IMG/VR virus record: IMGVR_UViG_2529292747_000018
Strand: one strand, 5' to 3'
Origin: a virus
Taxonomy: Duplodnaviria > Heunggongvirae > Uroviricota > Caudoviricetes
DNA length: 4,966 nucleotides
This document shows, in pieces, positions 1 to 4,966 of the stretch. The notes below the pieces were generated by a model, which was not told the origin of the DNA, made no database searches, and worked only from the letters and a program-made list of their open reading frames with translations. A program made the translations under genes and the position numbers. Position 1 is the first letter of the stretch, and each line of letters begins with the position of its first letter.

Positions 1-16
1 GTCTCCGGAATCCTTC

Positions 17-307
17 ATGAAACGACCTAAACGTCGCCGCTGGGTAAATGAGAAATACACACGCTGGGTAAAGACACAGCCGTGTGCGTGTTGTGGTAAG
101 CCAGCGGACGATCCTCATCATCTGATTGGTCATGGTCAGGGCGGAATGGGAACAAAATCCCACGATATTTTCACGCTACCGCTGTGTCGGGAGCATCACA
201 ACGAGCTTCATGCGGATCCGCTGGCGTTCGAAGAAAAGCATGGTTCCCAGGTTGATTTAATTTTTCGTTTTCTTGATCACGCCTTTGCGACTGGCGTGCT
301 CGGGTAA
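17..307 (+). CDS. Small Cys/His-rich nin-region protein, YbcO-like (DUF1364-type, HNH/zinc-finger-like putative nuclease)
   Basis: 96-aa ORF. CxCCG and HH...H...C..HH..H pattern (CACCGKPADDPHHLIGHGQ...LCREHHNELH) resembles a zinc-binding HNH-like fold. Same size and position (immediately upstream of rusA) as ybcO in DLP12-type prophages. ATG at 17 overlaps an upstream TGA (ATGA at 17-20), suggesting coupling to a gene cut by the window edge. Family assignment is from memory. Confidence 0.7.
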   Translation: MKRPKRRRWVNEKYTRWVKTQPCACCGKPADDPHHLIGHGQGGMGTKSHDIFTLPLCREHHNELHADPLAFEEKHGSQVDLIFRFLDHAFATGVLG

Positions 308-319
308 AAGAGGTGACTG

Positions 320-691
320 ATGCTCATAGATTTGGTTTTACCTTACCCGCCGACGGTGAACACCTACTGGCGACGTCGTGGCAGCACATATTTTGTATCA
401 AAAGCCGGTGAGCGTTATCGCCGGGCTGTGGCGCTTATTGTTCGCCAGCAGCGGCTGAAATTAAGCCTGTCCGGACGGCTGGCAATAAAAATTATTGCAG
501 AACCACCGGATAAGCGCCGCCGTGACCTGGACAACATTCTGAAAGCACCGCTGGATGCGCTGACGCATGCGGAAGTGCTCATTGATGACGAGCAGTTTGA
601 TGAAATCAATATTGTGCGCGGTCAGCCTGTGCCAGGTGGACGGCTGGGCGTGAAGATTTACGAAATCAGAGGTGGTAACGATGGCGCGTGA
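320..691 (+). CDS. rusA: RusA-family Holliday junction resolvase (crossover junction endodeoxyribonuclease)
   Basis: 123-aa ORF with GAGG Shine-Dalgarno 6 nt upstream. Contains RRRDLDN with the conserved catalytic Asp residues of RusA, plus LPxPP...N.Y.R N-terminal and GGRL C-terminal features. Sits in the nin region just before Q. Confidence 0.9.
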
Positions 692-1052
692 TATCCAGAT
701 GGTTCTTGAGCGATGGGGGGCATGGGCAGCAAATAATCATGAAGATGTAACATGGCCCTCGATAGCTGCTGGTTTTAAAGGATTAATCCCGACTAAAGTG
801 AAATCACGTCCTAAGTGTTCTGATGATGACGCCATGATAATTTGTGGTTGTATGGCACGATTAAACAAGAATAATCAGTATTTGCACGATTTGTTGGTGG
901 ATTATTACGTAGGTGGAATGACATTTATGGCTCTTGCACGTAAGCATAGATGTTCTGATGGGCTTATTGGTAAAAGGCTTTATAAAGCGGAAGGTATTAT
1001 TGAAGGAATGCTTATGGCTCTGAATGTCCGGTTAGATATGGATATGCGGTAG
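681..1052 (+). CDS. Q: Late-gene antiterminator Q, phage 21/82-type (QuuD-like)
   Basis: Protein [25 protein letters not shown]...CGCMARL...[10 protein letters not shown] matches the recalled N-terminus of DLP12 QuuD and 82-type Q proteins. ATG at 681 is preferred over the GTG at 672 given by the ORF track. Overlaps the rusA stop by 11 nt. Stop TAG at 1050-1052. Confidence 0.85.
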
Positions 1053-1143
1053 GGATATATAGTGATGAGGGTTATGTTTTCTGTGTTTATAATTAACATG
1101 TTTATTTTTTGATGGTCATGTATTGTGGAAGGTAGATAAAATG

Positions 1144-1172
1144 TTGCCTGGTGAATTGAAAATATTGATAAT
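1144..1172 (+). promoter_or_regulatory. Candidate sigma70 promoter for the CPBP gene (TTGCCT-N17-GATAAT)
   Basis: -35-like TTGCCT at 1144-1149, 17-nt spacer, -10-like GATAAT at 1167-1172, in an AT-rich stretch about 30 nt upstream of the CPBP Shine-Dalgarno. Pattern match only. Could alternatively be part of the Q-dependent late promoter. Confidence 0.3.
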
Positions 1173-1203
1173 CAATCTTCATCATTAAATAAAAGGAGTG
1201 CTT

Positions 1204-2022
1204 ATGTGGATTGTGTTAGTACTGTCACTGTCAACTCTCAGTTGGCATAAGGTAGTGGCTTTTTCATTGTTGACGGTGTCTGTTGTCCTGGCTGTGCTTA
1301 ATGATATTATTGATTGGTCGGTGTTATTTTTTGTTGCTACAATCGTTTTTTTTATTATTTTGAAGTTCAACTGGAAATATAACGCCTGGGCTAAATCTAT
1401 ATATGAAGTTGGCATAGTTTTATCAGCCATAGCATTATTTTTCCATCTATGGCCAGGGTTTCACAATCCTGTAGTGCTAAATTCTGTTACTGTTGGCCCT
1501 CAAAGTACTCCCTATACAATGTATTTTAATTTTGATAAAGCGCTGGTGCCATTTTTGTTAGTCCTGTGTACATCTTCTTTGTTTAAAAAAGAAGTAAAAT
1601 CAGAAGTGTCTTTGTGGAAGTGGGGGGCTCTGTCGCTCTCTGTTCCTCTTATCCTGTTTTTGGCTGTTTTTTTTGGTGGATTAAAGCCAGAGATTCATTT
1701 TCCTGAGTGGTTGCCAGAGTTTATATTGGCTAATTTGTTTTTTGTGTCTCTGGCAGAGGAATCATTATTTAGAGGGTATATTCAATCACGGCTATCAGAA
1801 GTAACGTCTCCATTGGTTGCATTAATTGTGGCGGCTTTGTTGTTTGGTTTTTATCACTATTCAGGTGGTGCTTTACTTGTATTATTTGCCACGTTATCTG
1901 GTGTTGTGTATGGATTGTCATGGATGTGGAGTGGGCGTTTGTGGGTTGCCACCCTTTTCCATTTTGGTTTGAATCTGTGTCACTTGTTATTCTTTACCTA
2001 TCCATTTTTAAAACATAATTGA
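1204..2022 (+). CDS. CPBP-family (CAAX protease / Abi, PF02517-like) polytopic membrane protein on an AT-rich moron
   Basis: 272 aa from ATG 1204, with AAGGAG Shine-Dalgarno at 1193-1198 and 5-nt spacing (the ORF-track GTG at 1198 lies inside the Shine-Dalgarno). Very hydrophobic with multiple predicted TM segments. Three CPBP motifs in canonical order and spacing: EExxxR (EESLFR, 1756-1773), FxxxH (FGFYH, 1843-1857), HxxxN (HFGLN, 1960-1974). Visibly AT-rich relative to the flanking phage genes. Confidence 0.8.
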   Translation: MWIVLVLSLSTLSWHKVVAFSLLTVSVVLAVLNDIIDWSVLFFVATIVFFIILKFNWKYNAWAKSIYEVGIVLSAIALFFHLWPGFHNPVVLNSVTVGPQSTPYTMYFNFDKALVPFLLVLCTSSLFKKEVKSEVSLWKWGALSLSVPLILFLAVFFGGLKPEIHFPEWLPEFILANLFFVSLAEESLFRGYIQSRLSEVTSPLVALIVAALLFGFYHYSGGALLVLFATLSGVVYGLSWMWSGRLWVATLFHFGLNLCHLLFFTYPFLKHN

Positions 2023-2074
2023 TTTTTTCTATGGTTTTAAATTTATAAGACTGAAAAATAGCAGGACGTGACAT

Positions 2075-2116
2075 TTGCATGAAAAATATGCACGGCAAAG
2101 CATTTACGTACGTAAA
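2075..2116 (+). promoter_or_regulatory. Promoter-like region with a perfect 14-bp palindrome TTTACGTACGTAAA (2103-2116); candidate late promoter or operator
   Basis: TTGCAT at 2075-2080 with a weak -10-like AAGCAT 17 nt downstream. Alternative TTTACG-N16-TATGCT at 2103-2130. The palindrome is perfect and overlaps these elements. An intrinsic terminator follows 50-75 nt downstream. Exact promoter position is uncertain. Confidence 0.25.
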
Positions 2117-2163
2117 AAATCAGGTATGCTGTTAAGAGTGGTTATTTCGCCGCATAGCTTGAC

Positions 2164-2185
2164 CCCGCCTCTGAGCGGGTTTTTT
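2164..2185 (+). terminator. Intrinsic terminator-like hairpin (CCCGC-CTCTGA-GCGGG) followed by T6
   Basis: 5-bp all-GC stem at 2164-2168 and 2175-2179, 6-nt loop, then TTTTTT at 2180-2185. Lies downstream of the CPBP gene and the promoter-like region. Confidence 0.5.
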
Positions 2186-2308
2186 GTGCCCGCAAAGTAG
2201 CGCAGTGCGTTAAATGTGCTGGTAGTTATTAATACAGGTCTTTCAGCTTGCTGGCTTTTTCGACAAGAGTTATTGGTGTGTCACGTTAACCGGAAAGGGT
2301 AAAAAGAC

Positions 2309-2671
2309 ATGCTGAAACAGCAGGATATGACAGAAACCGCCAGAGTTGTGTTTGATGAATTAAGCGTCACCGAACCGGCGACGGTCGGGGAGATTGCGCA
2401 GAATACGTACCTTTCACGCGAGCGCTGCCAGTTAATACTGACCCAGCTGGTTATGCGGGTCTGGCAGACTATCAGTTCGGTTGTTACAGACGCCTTCAGT
2501 CCTGAAGGCTTTTTTATTTGTGGTAAATGGGCGGCTGGTGGGTGTAAGGGGCACCCACCAGCCATCTGCTCATGCGTTGGGTTCACAAGCAAACCTCAGG
2601 CCCACTGCTTTGCGCAAAAGCAGAATGAGCCTATCAGAGACAGGCTTAATGATCCATGCTTAATACTGTAA
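2309..2671 (+). CDS. Hypothetical small protein; N-terminal ~60 aa plausibly coding, C-terminal half doubtful
   Basis: 120-aa ORF with a weak ribosome-binding site. The N-terminal part (TARVVFDELSVTEPATVGEIAQNTYLSRERCQLILTQL) looks like a small helical or HTH-like protein. The rest is translated through a textbook intrinsic terminator (2492-2519) and a perfect 12-bp hairpin (2533-2563), which argues against genuine coding. Confidence 0.25.
   Translation: MLKQQDMTETARVVFDELSVTEPATVGEIAQNTYLSRERCQLILTQLVMRVWQTISSVVTDAFSPEGFFICGKWAAGGCKGHPPAICSCVGFTSKPQAHCFAQKQNEPIRDRLNDPCLIL
2492..2519 (+). terminator. Strong intrinsic terminator (GCCTTCA-GTCC-TGAAGGC followed by TTTTTTATTT)
   Basis: Perfect 7-bp stem at 2492-2498 and 2503-2509, 4-nt loop, then a T-run at 2510-2519. 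Candidate for the Q-antiterminated late terminator tR' or an attenuator upstream of the methyltransferase. Confidence 0.6.
2533..2563. repeat. Perfect 12-bp inverted repeat GGCTGGTGGGTG / CACCCACCAGCC with 7-nt spacer
   Basis: Arms at 2533-2544 and 2552-2563 are exact reverse complements. No flanking U-run on either strand, so it is not a classical terminator. Stable RNA hairpin or protein-binding site. Confidence 0.6.
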
Positions 2672-3378
2672 AAATATCCAGTTGTGAGTTAATCAACGCC
2701 GACTGCCTGGAATTTATGCGGTCGTTACCCGAAAATTCTGTTGACCTGATAGTCACGGACCCGCCGTACTTCAAAGTGAAACCCGAGGGCTGGGATAACC
2801 AGTGGGCGGGTGATGAAGATTACCTGAAGTGGCTGGACCAGTGTCTTGCGCAGTTCTGGCGGGTGCTGAAACCTGCCGGAAGTCTTTACCTGTTCTGTGG
2901 CCATCGTCTGGCATCTGACACCGAAATCATGATGCGTGAGCGGTTTAACGTGCTGAACCATATCATCTGGGCAAAGCCGTCCGGACGCTGGAACGGGTGC
3001 AACAAGGAAAGCCTGCGGGCGTATTTCCCCGCCACAGAGCGCATTCTGTTCGCAGAGCATTATCAGGGGCCGTATCGTCCGAAAGATGCCGGGTATGAGG
3101 CGAAGGGTAGGACACTGAAACAGCATGTGATGGCCCCGCTGATTGCTTACTTTCGTGATGCGCGCGCTGTCCTGGGGATAACGGCAAAACAGATTGCAGA
3201 TGCCACAGGAAAGAAAAACATGGTGTCGCACTGGTTCAGTGCCGGTCAGTGGCAGCTGCCGAACGAAAGCGATTATCTGAAATTACAGGCACTGTTTGCC
3301 CGGGTGGCAGAAGAGAAGCATCAGCGGGGTGAACTGGAAAGCCCCACCACCAGCTGGTGGATACGTATGCCTCTCTGA
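2656..3378 (+). CDS. DNA methyltransferase (PF01555-like, beta-class N6-adenine/N4-cytosine), N-terminal fragment with DPPY motif; frame-split from the downstream part
   Basis: N-terminus LINADCLEFMRSLPENSVDLIVTDPPY carries catalytic motif IV (DPPY) in the arrangement typical of phage and ParB-linked amino-methyltransferases. The ORF ends at TGA 3376-3378 while the family's SAM-binding motif lies in the next ORF in another frame. Confidence 0.8.
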   Translation: MLNTVKISSCELINADCLEFMRSLPENSVDLIVTDPPYFKVKPEGWDNQWAGDEDYLKWLDQCLAQFWRVLKPAGSLYLFCGHRLASDTEIMMRERFNVLNHIIWAKPSGRWNGCNKESLRAYFPATERILFAEHYQGPYRPKDAGYEAKGRTLKQHVMAPLIAYFRDARAVLGITAKQIADATGKKNMVSHWFSAGQWQLPNESDYLKLQALFARVAEEKHQRGELESPTTSWWIRMPL

Positions 3379-3713
3379 ACCGACAGTATGCGGAGCTGCA
3401 GAGTGAATATAAGCATCTGCGGCGGTATTTCGGTGTGACGGTGCAGGTGCCGTACACCGATGTGTGGACGTATAAACCGGTGCAGTACTATCCAGGGAAA
3501 CATCCGTGCGAAAAACCGGCAGAAATGTTGCAGCAGATAATCAGCGCAAGCAGTCGTCCGGGAGACCTGGTTGCAGATTTCTTCATGGGGTCGGGGTCGA
3601 CAGTGAAAGCAGCGATGGCGCTGGGACGTCGTGCAACTGGCGTTGAACTGGAGACTGAACGTTTTGAGCAGACGGTGCGGGAAGTACAGGATTTAATCAT
3701 TCGTAACGGATGA
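3357..3713 (+). CDS. DNA methyltransferase C-terminal fragment (HPxxKP and FxGSGST SAM-binding motif I), same gene as 2656-3378 in a different frame
   Basis: Contains KHPCEKP and DFFMGSGSTVKAAMALGRR, the canonical C-terminal PF01555 signatures. The reading frame is open upstream of the annotated GTG start back to 3333 and overlaps the end of the N-terminal fragment, implying a single gene interrupted by a 1-nt indel or slip. Confidence 0.75.
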   Translation: MDTYASLNRQYAELQSEYKHLRRYFGVTVQVPYTDVWTYKPVQYYPGKHPCEKPAEMLQQIISASSRPGDLVADFFMGSGSTVKAAMALGRRATGVELETERFEQTVREVQDLIIRNG

Positions 3714-3753
3714 GATTGCGGAGTTAATCATGCGTCGTTATTATTCAGCAATC

Positions 3754-3829
3754 GGCCCTTTAGCTCAGCGGTGAGAGCGAGCGACTCATAATCGCCAGGT
3801 CGCTGGTTCAAATCCAGCAAGGGCCACCA
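3754..3829 (+). tRNA. tRNA-Ile2 (anticodon CAU, lysidine-type, AUA-decoding), ileX/ileZ-like
   Basis: 76 nt with cloverleaf: acceptor GGCCCTT/AAGGGCC, D-arm GCTC/GAGC, anticodon loop CTCATAA, T-arm GCTGG-TTCAAAT-CCAGC, 3' ACCA. Near-identical in layout to recalled E. coli ileX. The CAU anticodon could formally be Met, but similarity to ileX favours Ile2. Confidence 0.85.
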
Positions 3830-3830
3830 A

Positions 3831-3896
3831 CCGCCACTAGCTCATCAGGAAAGAACGTCACCCTGTGCGAGATTCGGAGTCCCCGGTGGCGGTCCA
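3831..3896 (+). other. Degenerate tRNA-like remnant (possible decayed argN-like tRNA)
   Basis: Perfect 7-bp acceptor-like pairing CCGCCAC (3831-3837) with GTGGCGG (3886-3892), followed by T-CCA, plus a D-arm-like TAGCTCA start and a T-loop-like TTCGGAGTCC. No foldable anticodon arm and only 66 nt long. Confidence 0.3.
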
Positions 3897-3909
3897 TTAT
3901 CGGTATTCT

Positions 3910-3986
3910 GCGTTGTTAGCTCAGCCGGACAGAGCAATTGCCTTCTAAGCAATCGGTCACTGGTCCGAATCCAGTACAACGCGCCA
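3910..3986 (+). tRNA. tRNA-Arg (anticodon UCU, AGA-decoding), argO/argU-like
   Basis: 77 nt: acceptor GCGTTGT/ACAACGC (perfect), D-arm GCTC/GAGC, anticodon stem ATTGC/GCAAT with loop CTTCTAA, T-arm ACTGG-TCCGAAT-CCAGT, discriminator G plus CCA. T-loop reads TCC instead of the usual TTC. Confidence 0.8.
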
Positions 3987-4171
3987 CACCACACTTATCT
4001 GCCCTGACTCTCTTTTGCGGGCTTTTTATTACAGGAAAGACACCGGACAGTGAAATGTTAAATGCCTCACAATTCAGGCAGTTGAATGTTGCCTGACATG
4101 CTGAGCGTTTGTTAAAAAAATTTCGCATGGTGAATCCCCCTGTGCGGAGGGGCAATCAGCAACCAGGTATA

Positions 4172-4180
4172 TGTGATAAT
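4172..4180 (+). promoter_or_regulatory. Candidate extended -10 promoter element (TGtGATAAT)
   Basis: TG at 4172-4173 one nt upstream of GATAAT (4175-4180). No convincing -35. Would start a transcript about 95 nt upstream of the terminator at 4259-4283. Confidence 0.2.
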
Positions 4181-4258
4181 CGCGGATTCAGGTGCTGATA
4201 CTGAATTCACCGGGAGGCACCCGGCACCATGCAAGAAAAAGAATGTGCATGCAAACAT

Positions 4259-4283
4259 GCCCCTCTCCGGAGGGGCATTTTTT
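4259..4283 (+). terminator. Intrinsic terminator (GCCCCTC-TCCG-GAGGGGC followed by ATTTTTT)
   Basis: Perfect 7-bp GC-rich stem at 4259-4265 and 4270-4276, 4-nt loop, then a T-run at 4278-4283. Confidence 0.6.
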
Positions 4284-4289
4284 ATGGGT

Positions 4290-4314
4290 AAAAAATGCCC
4301 GAATGGGTTCGGGC
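4290..4314 (-). terminator. Possible minus-strand intrinsic terminator (hairpin GCCCGAA-TGGG-TTCGGGC with adjacent A-run on + strand)
   Basis: Perfect 7-bp stem at 4297-4303 and 4308-4314. On the minus strand it is followed by a U-run (complement of A6 at 4290-4295). Together with 4259-4283 it forms a back-to-back terminator pair. No obvious minus-strand gene to terminate, so function is uncertain. Confidence 0.3.
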
Positions 4315-4375
4315 AATAGCATGAGATACTGATATTGTTGTGTTGTTATCGTGTGGATTTTAACCAGGGTTTATC

Positions 4376-4402
4376 AGGCTGCGCAACTGCGTGGCCTTTT
4401 TT
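4376..4402 (+). terminator. Intrinsic terminator-like hairpin (AGGCTGCGCA / TGCGTGGCCT with two G-U pairs) followed by T6
   Basis: 10-bp stem at 4376-4385 and 4388-4397 with a very short loop, followed by TTTTTT at 4397-4402 and a T-rich tail. Confidence 0.5.
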
Positions 4403-4410
4403 CATTTCTT

Positions 4411-4455
4411 GGGCTGTAGTCCCCGTGTGTCATTCAGGCTTCCGGACTACAGCCC
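4411..4455. repeat. Perfect 12-bp inverted repeat GGGCTGTAGTCC / GGACTACAGCCC with 21-nt spacer, just upstream of the nanS-p ribosome-binding site
   Basis: Arms at 4411-4422 and 4444-4455 are exact reverse complements. Located about 35 nt upstream of the GGGAGG Shine-Dalgarno of the downstream esterase gene. Confidence 0.6.
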
Positions 4456-4498
4456 ACTCCATATCTGATTTAATACACTATCCCGGCCGGGAGGAATA

Positions 4499-4966
4499 AT
4501 GACATTTAAACATTATGATGTTGTCAGGGCGGCGTCGCCGTCAGACCTTGCGGAAAAGCTGACACACAAACTGAAAGAGGGCTGGCAGCCATACGGCGGA
4601 CCGGTTGCCATTACGCCGTACACACTGATGCAGGCGGTGGCTATTGAAGGAGATCCACAGGTCGGCCCTTCATCTAAGCCGGACTGGTTCTACGTGGTTG
4701 TGCTTGCCGGACAGTCCAACGGCATGGCTTACGGTGAAGGGCTTCCGCTGCCGGATTCATACGATGCTCCGGATCCGCGCATTAAACAGCTGGCGCGCCG
4801 CAGCACGGTAACTCCGGGTGGAGAGAGTTGTACGTATAACGACATCATTCCGGCCGACCACTGCCTGCATGATGTGCAGGATATGAGTACGCTGAATCAT
4901 CCGAAGGCAGACCTGAGCAAAGGGCAGTACGGCTGTGTCGGCCAGGGCTTACATATTGCCAAAAAA
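4499..4966 (+). CDS. nanS-p: Prophage NanS-p-type sialate O-acetylesterase (N-terminal DUF1737-like domain plus start of SGNH/SASA hydrolase), 5' partial, continues past window end
   Basis: Open frame from ATG 4499 (GGGAGG Shine-Dalgarno at 4489-4494) to the window end, 156 codons with no stop. Translation MTFKHYDVVRAASPSDLAEKL...FYVVVLAGQSNGMAYGEG matches the recalled N-terminus of the YjhS/NanS-p esterases found next to stx in Stx phages. GQSN is the catalytic-serine block of sialate O-acetylesterase-type hydrolases. Confidence 0.85.
   Translation, partial: MTFKHYDVVRAASPSDLAEKLTHKLKEGWQPYGGPVAITPYTLMQAVAIEGDPQVGPSSKPDWFYVVVLAGQSNGMAYGEGLPLPDSYDAPDPRIKQLARRSTVTPGGESCTYNDIIPADHCLHDVQDMSTLNHPKADLSKGQYGCVGQGLHIAKK

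What the first reader, a model, noticed from the sequence alone, without database searches (positions are those of the whole stretch)
3754..4966. Stx-phage-type cargo locus (tRNAs to nanS-p) with no Shiga toxin genes
The order Q, methyltransferase, tRNA-Ile2/tRNA-Arg, then nanS-p esterase matches the late-region neighbourhood where Stx-converting phages carry stxAB between the tRNAs and nanS-p. Here that interval (3987-4498) is about 510 bp with no ORF longer than about 20 codons on the + strand. Either this is a stx-negative relative, an empty acquisition site, or the toxin operon has been lost. The interval is dense with hairpins rather than neutral spacer.
Basis: partly seen in the sequence, partly recalled or inferred. 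Interest (0 to 1): 0.6.

Follow-up and report, generated by a model that had tools for sequence, protein, structure and literature searches.

The report
Toxin-free Stx-phage site carrying known sRNAs
This is the ordinary late-gene region of a Shiga-toxin-negative E. coli prophage, and the apparently empty gap before the esterase gene holds a pair of already described small regulatory RNA genes (AgvB and an STnc100-type RNA).

Summary
Window 3754-4966 has a tRNA-Ile2(CAU), a broken argN remnant, a tRNA-Arg(UCU), a 512-bp stretch without credible ORFs, and the start of nanS-p.

Both flanks align with Stx2 phage 933W. Its 1341-bp stx2AB block corresponds to only 39 nt here (4028-4066). No trace of stx is detectable.

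The interval is not empty. Rfam gives STnc100 at 4096-4289 (+) with 157.6 bits, and AgvB at 4351-4290 (-) with 96.5 bits and 62/62 identity to the consensus. This is the convergent sRNA pair that Tree et al. (2014) described between the moron site and the conserved esterase ORF of EHEC lambdoid prophages. Stx1 and Stx2 phages carry the same module downstream of stxB.

The 512 bp are 100% identical to several complete E. coli genomes and 99.8% identical to many O157:H7 genomes.

In a sample of 122 such sites, the gap between argO and the STnc100 core was short and cargo-free in 31. Other sites carried TerB-like, IraM-like or TolA-C-like ORFs, or Stx2.

Verdict: already known and ordinary. The only unexplained items are a conserved second terminator and a 13-bp hairpin upstream of nanS-p.

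The parts
2103..2185 (+). Context: homologue of the Stx-phage late promoter pR', qut and first tR' terminator (the StxS-type region). It defines the start of the Q-dependent late operon that contains everything below.
   Evidence: 75% identity over 84 nt to 933W 20666-20748, annotated pR'/qut/terminator, and to the post-Q region of Stx1 phage YYZ-2008. StxS biology is described in PMC7547250.
3754..3829 (+). tRNA-Ile2 (anticodon CAT, ileZ type)
   Evidence: ARAGORN; Rfam tRNA 70.9 bits; one mismatch to 933W ileZ; PGAP calls the homologues tRNA-Ile.
3831..3896 (+). argN remnant: a pseudo-tRNA with a 12-nt deletion that removes the 3' half of the anticodon arm
   Evidence: Alignment with 933W argN and an O157 relative. 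Not called by ARAGORN even at relaxed thresholds. The same allele in O157:H7 genomes is annotated with only two tRNAs.
3910..3986 (+). tRNA-Arg (anticodon TCT, argO type); T-loop reads TCCGAAT instead of TTCGAAT
   Evidence: ARAGORN and Rfam, 65.8 bits; alignment.
4001..4027 (+). Homologue of the 933W terminator between argO and stx; the stem is weakened here
   Evidence: Aligned to the 933W feature 'terminator upstream of the stx genes'. Folds at -6.0 kcal/mol (z -1.3) against -14.8 (z -4.3) in 933W.
4028..4066 (.). The actual unoccupied moron site: 39 nt where 933W carries 1341 bp (stx2 promoter, stxA2, stxB2 and 45 nt of 3' flank)
   Evidence: Pairwise blastn break points. No similarity to stx operons. 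The same junction occurs in L041 and L082.
4055..4096 (+). Left edge of the conserved sRNA module: a TGTTAAAT (-10-like) motif, TCACAATTCAG, and a leader hairpin at 4074-4096
   Evidence: Conservation starts here in 55 distinct upstream sequences, whatever cargo precedes it. The hairpin folds at -10.3 kcal/mol. Its role as a promoter is inferred only.
4096..4289 (+). STnc100-family structured RNA (homologue of EcOnc27 of Sp5 and EcOnc42 of Sp15; related to PasD), ending in an intrinsic terminator at 4257-4278 plus a U-run
   Evidence: Rfam RF02076, 157.6 bits against a gathering score of 47, full length 1-206. Terminator scan. Closing helix plus three hairpins, with compensatory changes in P2 (AU:40 / GC:20) across 68 sequences. 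The EcOnc27 northern probe matches the homologous 933W sequence.
4290..4351 (-). AgvB anti-sRNA gene (GcvB sponge): single-stranded 5' seed CGAUAACAACACAACAAUAUC, a small hairpin, and a terminator at 4315-4296 plus a U-run
   Evidence: Rfam RF02702, 96.5 bits against a gathering score of 56, 62/62 identical to the consensus. Fold. 12-nt perfect complement to GcvB nt 71-82. Tree et al. 2014.
4357..4386 (-). Candidate sigma-70 promoter of AgvB: -35 TTGCGC (4386-4381), 18-nt spacer, -10 TAAAAT (4362-4357), start near 4351
   Evidence: Read from the sequence. Both hexamers lie in blocks conserved across 933W, the Stx1 phage and PPyecE. Inferred; it falls below the threshold of the promoter scan.
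4376..4403 (+). Second + strand intrinsic terminator (9-bp stem, GC-rich, T6)
   Evidence: Terminator scan. -14.9 kcal/mol, z -4.0. Conserved in all classes. In loci that lack the anti-sRNA it directly follows the STnc100 core. Pair counts.
4410..4456 (+). Conserved long hairpin (13 perfect bp here) in the nanS-p leader; function unknown
   Evidence: Inverted repeat I1. -28 kcal/mol, z -5.8. 89% of cells paired, and 5 pairs with changes on both sides, in 27 sequences.
4499..4966 (+). 5' part of nanS-p (DUF1737 + SASA sialate O-acetylesterase); it runs off the window; SD GGAGG at 4490-4494
   Evidence: Pfam DUF1737, 60 bits. Homologues are annotated as SASA esterase / yjhS. Full-length 617-aa homologues carry DUF1737+SASA+DUF6645.

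Best explanation
The stretch is the moron-insertion segment of the Q-dependent late operon of a Shiga-toxin-negative, Stx-phage-like lambdoid prophage of E. coli. From a pR'-type promoter at about 2103-2131, the late operon runs through a frameshifted DNA methylase, the rare-codon tRNA cluster and the 512-bp interval into nanS-p and, by homology, the lysis genes. The tRNA cluster consists of ileZ, a dead argN and argO. The position that stx2AB occupies in 933W-type phages is vacant here (39 nt, 4028-4066). The rest of the interval is a conserved module that Stx1, Stx2 and stx-negative prophages share, made of two convergent small-RNA genes. On the + strand lies an STnc100/EcOnc27/PasD-family RNA of roughly 190-215 nt: a three-hairpin core closed by GCAUGGUG/CACCAUGC, followed by a terminator. 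Its target is not established. On the - strand lies the 60-nt anti-sRNA AgvB. AgvB is made from its own promoter in the lysogen. It binds Hfq and uses its single-stranded 5' CACAACA-containing seed to pair with the R1 seed of the core sRNA GcvB. This relieves GcvB repression of DppA and other amino-acid and peptide transport mRNAs. The two terminators abut at 4289/4290. A second + strand terminator and a long hairpin follow. Together with tR' they probably keep promoter activity from the tRNAs and sRNAs out of nanS-p and the lysis cassette unless Q-modified polymerase reads through.

Shown here: family membership by covariance models, homology and break points, complementarity to GcvB, conserved structures, and absence of stx.

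Taken from the literature: Hfq binding, GcvB sponging, and the fitness effect in bovine rectal mucus.

Inferred: transcription start sites, promoters, and the insulating role of the extra terminators.
For: Rfam hits far above gathering scores. Break points against 933W and a Stx1 phage. No stx similarity. The interval is 100% identical in 5 complete E. coli genomes and 99.8% identical in many O157:H7 genomes; 595 of 5426 genomes hold at least 80% of it in one place. 782 of 5426 genomes hold the whole uninterrupted tRNA-to-nanS-p stretch. In the survey of 122 STnc100-core sites in IMG/VR, the short gap is the commonest class (31), and alternative cargo fills the same gap elsewhere. STnc100 structure shows compensatory changes. 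AgvB folds with a free 5' seed and has a 12-nt perfect complement to GcvB R1. The pR'/qut/tR' homologue lies at 2103-2185. The published description of exactly this arrangement, convergent sRNAs between the moron CDS and the conserved ORF, is in PMC4104026. STnc100 is annotated or reported about 75 nt downstream of stx2B (PMC12370729). [quoted passage not shown]
Against: No expression data exist for this particular prophage. The post-tRNA terminator is weakened, argN is deleted, argO carries a T-loop substitution and the methylase is frameshifted. The prophage may therefore be decaying, and individual parts could be inactive. No convincing sigma-70 promoter could be assigned to the STnc100-type RNA: the scan's only hit (4093-4121) would give an RNA shorter than the ~235/247 nt reported for the Sp5 homologue. 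The function of the STnc100 family remains unknown.
Confidence: 0.88

Rival explanations
1. The locus is a former Stx phage that lost stxAB by deletion, so the 39-nt junction is a deletion scar.
For: Both flanks of stx2 in 933W are present and collinear. Q is 79% identical to Q of 933W. The region shows other signs of decay: the argN deletion, the methylase frameshift and a weakened terminator.
Against: No residual stx coding, promoter or 3' sequence is detectable by tblastn or sensitive blastn. The identical junction recurs in unrelated contigs (L041, L082) and in complete genomes. The right half of the junction (GAAGACACYGGRCAGTGAAATGTTAAAT) also follows another STnc100 copy in L060, so it belongs to the sRNA-module leader and not to stx. 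Short gaps are the commonest state (31 sites against 6 with Stx) and several unrelated cargos occupy the same gap. This pattern fits repeated insertion or exchange of morons better than one deletion here.
Confidence: 0.08
2. The STnc100-type element is mainly a cis-acting part of the late transcript rather than a trans-acting sRNA. It could be a 3' UTR or processing platform for the upstream moron, or a leader or insulator for nanS-p and the lysis genes.
For: It always sits in the late operon just upstream of nanS-p, whatever precedes it. No promoter could be assigned. In one class of loci it has no terminator of its own and runs to the shared downstream terminator. No trans target has been validated in the papers read.
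Against: Homologues are Hfq-bound, discrete 235/247-nt species on northern blots in lysogens where Q is off. The related PasD RNAs have many RIL-seq partners. Conservation begins at a -10-like motif.
Confidence: 0.15
3. The interval encodes small proteins. Candidates are the 48-aa minus-strand ORF at 4112-4258, which PGAP marks as a partial hypothetical protein in relatives, or the + strand ORF annotated as YYZ_gp41 in phage YYZ-2008.
For: Mechanical ORFs of 44-54 codons exist on both strands. Some annotations call CDSs here.
Against: Homologues differ by indels of 10, 8, 2 and 1 nt that do not preserve a reading frame. Variation is compensatory for RNA helices. The covariance-model scores are very high. 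PGAP itself flags the CDS as incomplete.
Confidence: 0.03

Closest known systems
AgvB (EcOnc01a/b; Rfam RF02702), anti-sRNA of E. coli O157:H7 Sakai prophages Sp10 and Sp17 (Tree et al. 2014, Mol Cell, PMC4104026)
   Same: Identical to the family consensus at all 62 positions. It has the same position and orientation: antisense to the late operon, between the moron site and nanS-p, convergent with a + strand sRNA. It has the same CACAACA seed and the same terminator.
   Different: Nothing in the RNA itself differs. Only the surrounding mosaic differs: a Q933-like Q with a CPBP insertion, a dead argN, and a frameshifted methylase.
AsxR (EcOnc02; RF02703) of the Stx2 phage Sp5/933W
   Same: Homologous gene at the same position, with a shared ~42-nt 3' part and promoter.
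   Different: The 5' seed differs: AsxR targets FnrS, whereas this RNA has the GcvB-directed seed. The AsxR model scores only 43 bits against a gathering score of 63.
STnc100 (RF02076) / EcOnc27 (Sp5) / EcOnc42 (Sp15) / PasD family
   Same: Full-length match of 157.6 bits. Same three-hairpin core and terminator. Same location downstream of the moron and upstream of the sialate esterase.
   Different: The P2 hairpin and the segment before the terminator are of the variant found in stx-negative prophages. They are 10-13 nt shorter than in 933W.
Late region of Stx2 phage 933W (Q - pR' - ileZ argN argO - stx2AB - sRNAs - nanS-p/L0105 - S R)
   Same: Same order. Q is 79% identical. tRNA block 80% identical and stxB-to-nanS-p spacer 76% identical. 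A pR'/qut/tR' homologue is present.
   Different: No stx2AB. A CPBP protease gene sits between Q and pR'. A TrmB-like remnant and a DNA methylase sit between pR' and the tRNAs. argN is deleted.
stx-negative lambdoid prophages of EHEC/EPEC (for example the O157:H7 prophage in strain 493/89, L001, and those in E. coli 2014C-3011, L006)
   Same: Window 1-2555 is 99.5% identical to L001. The interval 3987-4498 is 100% identical to L006. The tRNA-sRNA-nanS-p architecture is the same.
   Different: This exact combination of modules was not found as one piece in the 5426 complete genomes. The best single place covers 76% of the window.

Membership tests
AgvB anti-sRNA (RF02702) | Covariance-model score at or above the curated gathering score (56 bits) | tested here: met
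   96.5 bits, E 1.5e-18, model positions 1-62 of 62, all identical to the consensus.
AgvB anti-sRNA (RF02702) | 5' variable region carrying the GcvB R1 target consensus CACAACA and able to pair with GcvB R1 | tested here: met
   The sequence CGAUAACAACACAACAAUAUC contains the consensus. A 12-nt perfect complement to K-12 GcvB nt 71-82 is present. The 5' 24 nt give a duplex of -19.9 kcal/mol against -13.7 +/- 2.7 for shuffles, and 17 of 1000 shuffles reach it.
AgvB anti-sRNA (RF02702) | Conserved ~42-nt 3' part ending in a Rho-independent terminator; total length 51-60 nt | tested here: met
   Terminator at 4315-4296 plus U6. The fold leaves the 5' end free. The 3' part is conserved with 933W and the Stx1 phage. 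The exact 5' end was not mapped.
AgvB anti-sRNA (RF02702) | Located in the moron region 3' of pR', antisense to the late operon and convergent with a + strand sRNA, upstream of the conserved phage ORF | tested here: met
   The arrangement is as described in PMC4104026.
AgvB anti-sRNA (RF02702) | Expressed, Hfq-bound, and relieves GcvB repression of DppA | not testable with these tools
   Known for the identical RNA in O157:H7 Sakai. Not measured for this locus.
STnc100 (RF02076) / EcOnc27 / PasD family | Covariance-model score at or above the gathering score (47 bits) over the whole model | tested here: met
   157.6 bits, E 2e-36, model positions 1-206 of 206.
STnc100 (RF02076) / EcOnc27 / PasD family | Conserved secondary structure (closing helix, three hairpins, terminator) supported by compensatory change | tested here: met
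   RNAalifold on 68 distinct sequences gives 24 pairs, 5 with changes on both sides (for example AU:40 / GC:20). The closing helix and P3 are almost invariant.
STnc100 (RF02076) / EcOnc27 / PasD family | Independent transcript of about 200-250 nt bound by Hfq | not testable with these tools
   Reported for the Sp5 homologue, ~235/247 nt. No promoter could be assigned here.
Stx-converting phage late region | stxA and stxB genes between the tRNA cluster (or pR') and the sRNA/nanS-p segment | tested here: not met
   tblastn with Stx1 and Stx2 subunits gives a best E of 0.07. blastn with both operons finds nothing in 3987-4498. The locus is Stx-phage-like but is not an Stx-converting locus.
Stx-converting phage late region | Q antiterminator with a cognate pR'/qut/tR' upstream | tested here: met
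   PF06530, 174.5 bits, and 79% identity to Q of 933W. pR'/qut/tR' homologue at 2103-2185.
Stx-converting phage late region | ileZ-argN-argO tRNA cluster | tested here: inconclusive
   ileZ and argO are present and score well. argN is a deletion remnant.
Stx-converting phage late region | nanS-p esterase followed by holin and endolysin genes | tested here: inconclusive
   The nanS-p 5' end is present. Holin and endolysin lie beyond the window and are seen only in the closest relatives.

The most novel reading that the evidence does not exclude
The conserved + strand terminator (4376-4403) and the 13-bp hairpin (4410-4456) lie between the AgvB promoter and the nanS-p ribosome-binding site. Possibly together with the STnc100-type structure, they could form an undescribed cis-regulatory unit that controls expression or processing of nanS-p and the lysis cassette, for example a Q-dependent insulator or an RNase processing site. 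Under this reading they would be more than leftover terminators.
Probability: 0.1. Interest if true: 0.4.

Novelty: already known. Interest (0 to 1): 0.15.

Why it matters
The finding matters little beyond correct annotation. It shows that an 'empty' stx site in a toxin-negative prophage is a normal and very common state. It also shows that the adjoining spacer carries regulatory RNA cargo that gene callers miss or mis-annotate as hypothetical proteins. AgvB rewires host amino-acid and peptide uptake through GcvB. For surveillance, such prophages offer homologous flanks on both sides of the stx position, so toxin cassettes could be gained or exchanged by recombination. That possibility is already appreciated in the field.

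Tried and rejected
1. I looked for stx remnants or a deletion scar. Short-word blastn of 4015-4075 against 933W, a Stx1 phage and relatives gave only chance 8-11-mers. tblastn and blastn of whole stx operons against the window found nothing in the interval.

2. I tried to recover the middle tRNA with relaxed ARAGORN thresholds. Only spurious minus-strand calls appeared. Alignment then showed the 12-nt deletion.

3. I tried to find the source organism with the argN-deletion junction as an exact 36-mer in one-genome-per-species contigs. There were 0 hits. The allele was then found in O157:H7 genomes by megablast.

4. The promoter of the STnc100-type RNA stays unassigned. The scan's single hit (CTGACA-17-AAAAAT, 4093-4121) implies a ~160-nt RNA, at odds with the published 235/247 nt for the homologue. 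A conserved TGTTAAAT at 4056-4063 is a better candidate, but it has no conserved -35.

5. RNAalifold on a mixed set of 37 nanS-p leaders returned no structure, because two unrelated leader types were pooled. It was redone on 27 homologous rows with a named structure.

6. The AgvB sequence printed in the machine-read supplement of Tree et al. is inconsistent between lines. I therefore did not use it for identity. The Rfam consensus and the O157:H7 genomes were used instead.

7. The protein-coding reading of the interval was rejected because of frame-breaking indels and RNA covariation.
Full report
WHAT IS IN THE WINDOW

The 4966-bp window is a lambdoid prophage segment. It contains, in order:
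- the 3' end of a DUF968 gene (17-307);
- rusA (320-691);
- a Q antiterminator (681-1052; PF06530);
- a CPBP/Rce1-like membrane protease (1198-2022);
- a 120-codon ORF without a Pfam hit (2309-2671);
- an N6/N4 DNA methylase split into two ORFs (2656-3378 and 3357-3713);
- two tRNAs;
- a 512-bp stretch;
- the start of a DUF1737/SASA esterase gene, nanS-p (4499 onward).

Q is 79% identical to Q of Stx2 phage 933W.

Window 2103-2185 is 75% identical to the annotated pR' promoter, qut site and first tR' terminator of 933W, and to the equivalent stretch of a Stx1 phage. The late operon therefore starts about 1 kb downstream of Q, behind the CPBP gene. Everything from the methylase to nanS-p lies inside the operon.

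CHECK OF THE OBSERVATION

tRNA(CAT) lies at 3754-3829 and tRNA-Arg(TCT) at 3910-3986. ARAGORN and the Rfam tRNA model (70.9 and 65.8 bits) both call them.

The CAT tRNA differs from 933W ileZ by one base. 933W ileZ is annotated as reading AUA, and PGAP calls the homologues tRNA-Ile. 'tRNA-Ile2' is therefore right.

Between the two tRNAs lies a remnant of the third Stx-phage tRNA, argN (3831-3896). A 12-nt deletion has removed half of its anticodon arm. ARAGORN does not call it even at relaxed thresholds. The same allele occurs at 99.2-99.6% identity in O157:H7 genomes, where PGAP also annotates only two tRNAs.

The interval 3987-4498 has no ATG-started + strand ORF above 29 codons. GTG/TTG ORFs reach 54 codons.

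The interval folds better than dinucleotide shuffles (z -3.8 on the + strand, -3.2 on the - strand). It holds 5 terminator-like sites against 1.4 +/- 1.3 expected.

CORRESPONDENCE WITH STX PHAGES

Pairwise blastn against 933W gives two collinear blocks:
- Window 3705-4027 matches the tRNA promoter region, ileZ, argN, argO and the 'terminator upstream of the stx genes' at 80% identity.
- Window 4067-4596 matches 933W from 46 nt after the stx2B stop into nanS-p (L0105) at 76% identity.

The 1341 bp of 933W between these blocks hold the stx2 promoter, stxA2, stxB2 and the 3' flank. They correspond to 39 nt in the window (4028-4066).

Stx1 phage YYZ-2008 aligns from 40 nt after the stx1B stop, at window 4053 onward (82%).

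No stx remnant is detectable. tblastn with all four Stx subunits gives only chance hits (best E 0.07). Sensitive blastn with both operons finds nothing in the interval. The junction 4015-4075 shares only 8-11-mers with these phages.

WHAT THE INTERVAL CONTAINS

A scan against Rfam gives two strong matches:
- STnc100 (RF02076) at 4096-4289 on the + strand: 157.6 bits against a gathering score of 47, over the full model.
- AgvB (RF02702) at 4351-4290 on the - strand: 96.5 bits against a gathering score of 56, identical to the consensus at all 62 positions.

AsxR, the Stx2-phage paralogue, scores 43 bits at the same place, below its threshold.

The two genes converge. Their intrinsic terminators (4257-4278 on + and 4315-4296 on -) abut at 4289/4290.

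Tree et al. [quoted passage not shown] AgvB1 and AgvB2 lie in Sp10 and Sp17. AsxR plus EcOnc27 lie 3' of stx2B in Sp5 (PMC4104026).

The northern probe for EcOnc27 matches the 933W sequence that aligns with the window's STnc100 element. EcOnc27 is therefore the STnc100 homologue.

Other sources place STnc100 about 75 nt downstream of stx2B (annotation in phage F004; PMC12370729). [quoted passage not shown]

TESTS OF THE RNA ASSIGNMENTS

AgvB:
- It folds with a free 21-nt 5' end, a small hairpin and a terminator (-13.7 kcal/mol, z -3.75).
- Its 5' end carries CACAACA and a 12-nt perfect complement to nt 71-82 of K-12 GcvB, the R1 region. The 5' 24 nt pair at -19.9 kcal/mol against -13.7 +/- 2.7 for shuffles.
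- A weak GcvB-model hit on the opposite strand (4255-4403) likely reflects this mimicry, although I did not check which GcvB model positions it matches.
- A plausible promoter sits in blocks conserved across 933W, the Stx1 phage and PPyecE: TTGCGC, 18-nt spacer, TAAAAT, ending 5 nt before 4351. This assignment is inferred.

STnc100-type RNA:
- An alignment of 68 distinct copies supports a closing helix (AUGGUG/CACCAU), an invariant first hairpin, a variable second hairpin with compensatory changes (AU:40 / GC:20 at one pair, and four further pairs with double changes) and a nearly invariant third hairpin.
- Conservation across 55 distinct upstream sequences begins sharply at T(G/T)TTAAAT...TCACAATTCAG (window about 4055), whatever cargo precedes it.
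- Counting back the published ~235/247 nt from the terminator puts the 5' end of the Sp5 RNA close to this edge.
- A promoter could not be assigned with confidence.

HOW COMMON THIS IS, AND WHAT ELSE SITS AT THE SITE

- The 512-bp interval is 100% identical in five complete E. coli genomes and 99.8% identical in many O157:H7 genomes. 595 of 5426 complete genomes hold at least 80% of it in one place.
- The whole stretch 3700-4966 is present uninterrupted (at least 80% covered) in 782 genomes.
- The window as a whole is a mosaic. Bases 1-2555 are 99.5% identical to an O157:H7 prophage (L001). Bases 2177-4966 are about 93% identical to another prophage type (L129-L134). No single complete genome holds more than 76% of the window in one place.

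- 31 sites have 103-138 nt and no cargo. The window has 138 nt, as does L041.
- 18 sites have about 725 nt with a 108-aa ORF. It has no Pfam hit and lies where some phage records annotate iraM; I did not compare the two directly.
- At least 17 sites have about 800-860 nt with a TerB-domain protein.
- 2 sites have 1451-1453 nt with TerB plus small ORFs.
- 2 sites carry a TolA-C-domain lipoprotein.
- 5 sites have 1434-1436 nt with Stx2; one further Stx site has no tRNAs.

PPyecE_EH1910 carries ORFs annotated as a plasmid stabilization protein and a transcriptional regulator, together with a TerB-like gene, at this position. The position is thus a general moron hotspot, and the short gap is its most frequent state in this sample.

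The right half of the window's 39-nt junction also follows another STnc100 copy in L060. It therefore belongs to the sRNA-module leader and is not a relic of stx.

REMAINING STRUCTURES

A second + strand terminator (4376-4403; -14.9 kcal/mol, z -4.0) is conserved in all classes. In loci that lack the anti-sRNA gene it directly follows the STnc100 core. It therefore looks like the ancestral terminator of that RNA, and it also overlaps the -35 of AgvB on the other strand.

A 13-bp perfect hairpin (4410-4456; -28 kcal/mol, z -5.8) lies 42 nt upstream of the nanS-p start. In 27 homologous leaders, 89% of cells pair and five pairs show changes on both sides, above the shuffled and slid controls. 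Its function is unknown. I found no description of it in the papers read.

MECHANISM

This part combines results shown here with inference and published work.
- In the lysogen, Q is off and pR' transcripts stop at tR'.
- The tRNAs supply decoders for AUA and AGA/AGG. Their promoter is annotated as putative in 933W.
- AgvB is made from its own promoter, binds Hfq and sequesters the R1 seed of GcvB. This raises DppA and related transporters. In Sakai this improves growth in bovine terminal rectal mucus.
- The STnc100-type RNA is an Hfq-bound RNA of unknown target.
- On induction, Q-modified polymerase reads through all the terminators into nanS-p and the lysis genes.
- The string of terminators and hairpins plausibly shields the lysis cassette from the constitutive tRNA and sRNA promoters. 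This is inference.

VERDICT

The 'empty' interval, however, is a well-described sRNA locus, and the truly vacant site is only about 40 nt. Loss of stx cannot be excluded, but nothing supports it. The finding is already known and of low interest. The only open points are the two conserved structures upstream of nanS-p and the still unknown role of the STnc100 family.

Noticed in passing
window 1053-2131: The homologue of pR'/qut/tR' of 933W lies at 2103-2185, not right after Q (which ends at 1052). A CPBP/Rce1-like membrane protease gene (1198-2022) sits between Q and its late promoter, so it is outside the Q-dependent operon. The same arrangement occurs in an O157:H7 prophage (L001). The 2103-2185 stretch corresponds to the region that yields the sRNA StxS in Stx phages (PMC7547250).
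   Followed up: partly
window 3337-3340 (methylase, 2656-3713): The DNA methylase is split by a 1-nt deletion in an A-run (AAAA to AAA) relative to the intact 352-aa homologue. The truncated 240-aa product is on record in 182 blocks of the public collection, so this is an inherited allele and not a sequencing error of this window.
   Followed up: yes
window 3831-3896: The middle tRNA of the Stx-phage cluster (argN) is a remnant with a 12-nt deletion of the anticodon arm. The same allele is present in O157:H7 prophages.
   Followed up: yes
window 3960-3970 (within tRNA-Arg 3910-3986): The T-loop of the tRNA-Arg(UCU) reads TCCGAAT, whereas 933W argO and an O157 relative have TTCGAAT. This is a change at the normally invariant U55 position, so the tRNA may be impaired.
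   Followed up: partly
window 4001-4027: The terminator that follows argO in 933W (-14.8 kcal/mol) is weakened here by substitutions in the 5' arm (-6.0 kcal/mol, z -1.3). tRNA transcripts may therefore read into the sRNA module.
   Followed up: partly
window 4410-4456: A 13-bp perfect hairpin in the nanS-p leader is conserved in related prophages, with some compensatory changes. It has no T-run, and no description of it was found in the papers read.
   Followed up: partly
window 2309-2671: A 120-codon ORF has no Pfam hit. The homologous stretch in an O157:H7 genome is annotated as a frameshifted TrmB-family regulator, so this is probably a gene remnant.
   Followed up: no
window 4112-4258 (-); L006/L007 5129-5272; L003 3612-3839: Public annotations place 'hypothetical protein' CDSs, some flagged partial, on top of the STnc100-type RNA. 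These are probably spurious calls over a non-coding RNA.
   Followed up: partly
L060 1400-1680; L011; L033; loci with 782 nt between the STnc100 core and nanS-p: Some viral contigs carry two STnc100 cores in tandem or within about 2 kb. In a large class (21 of 122 sites) the STnc100 core lies about 780 nt rather than about 375 nt upstream of nanS-p, with an unrelated nanS-p leader. The content of the extra ~400 nt was not examined.
   Followed up: no
L094-type loci (for example L001 6880-6990): In many stx-negative prophages the minus-strand partner of STnc100 is a different RNA, with another terminator (GCCCGCG...CGCGGGC) and another 5' region. AgvB/AsxR is therefore only one of several anti-sRNA types at this position.
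   Followed up: no
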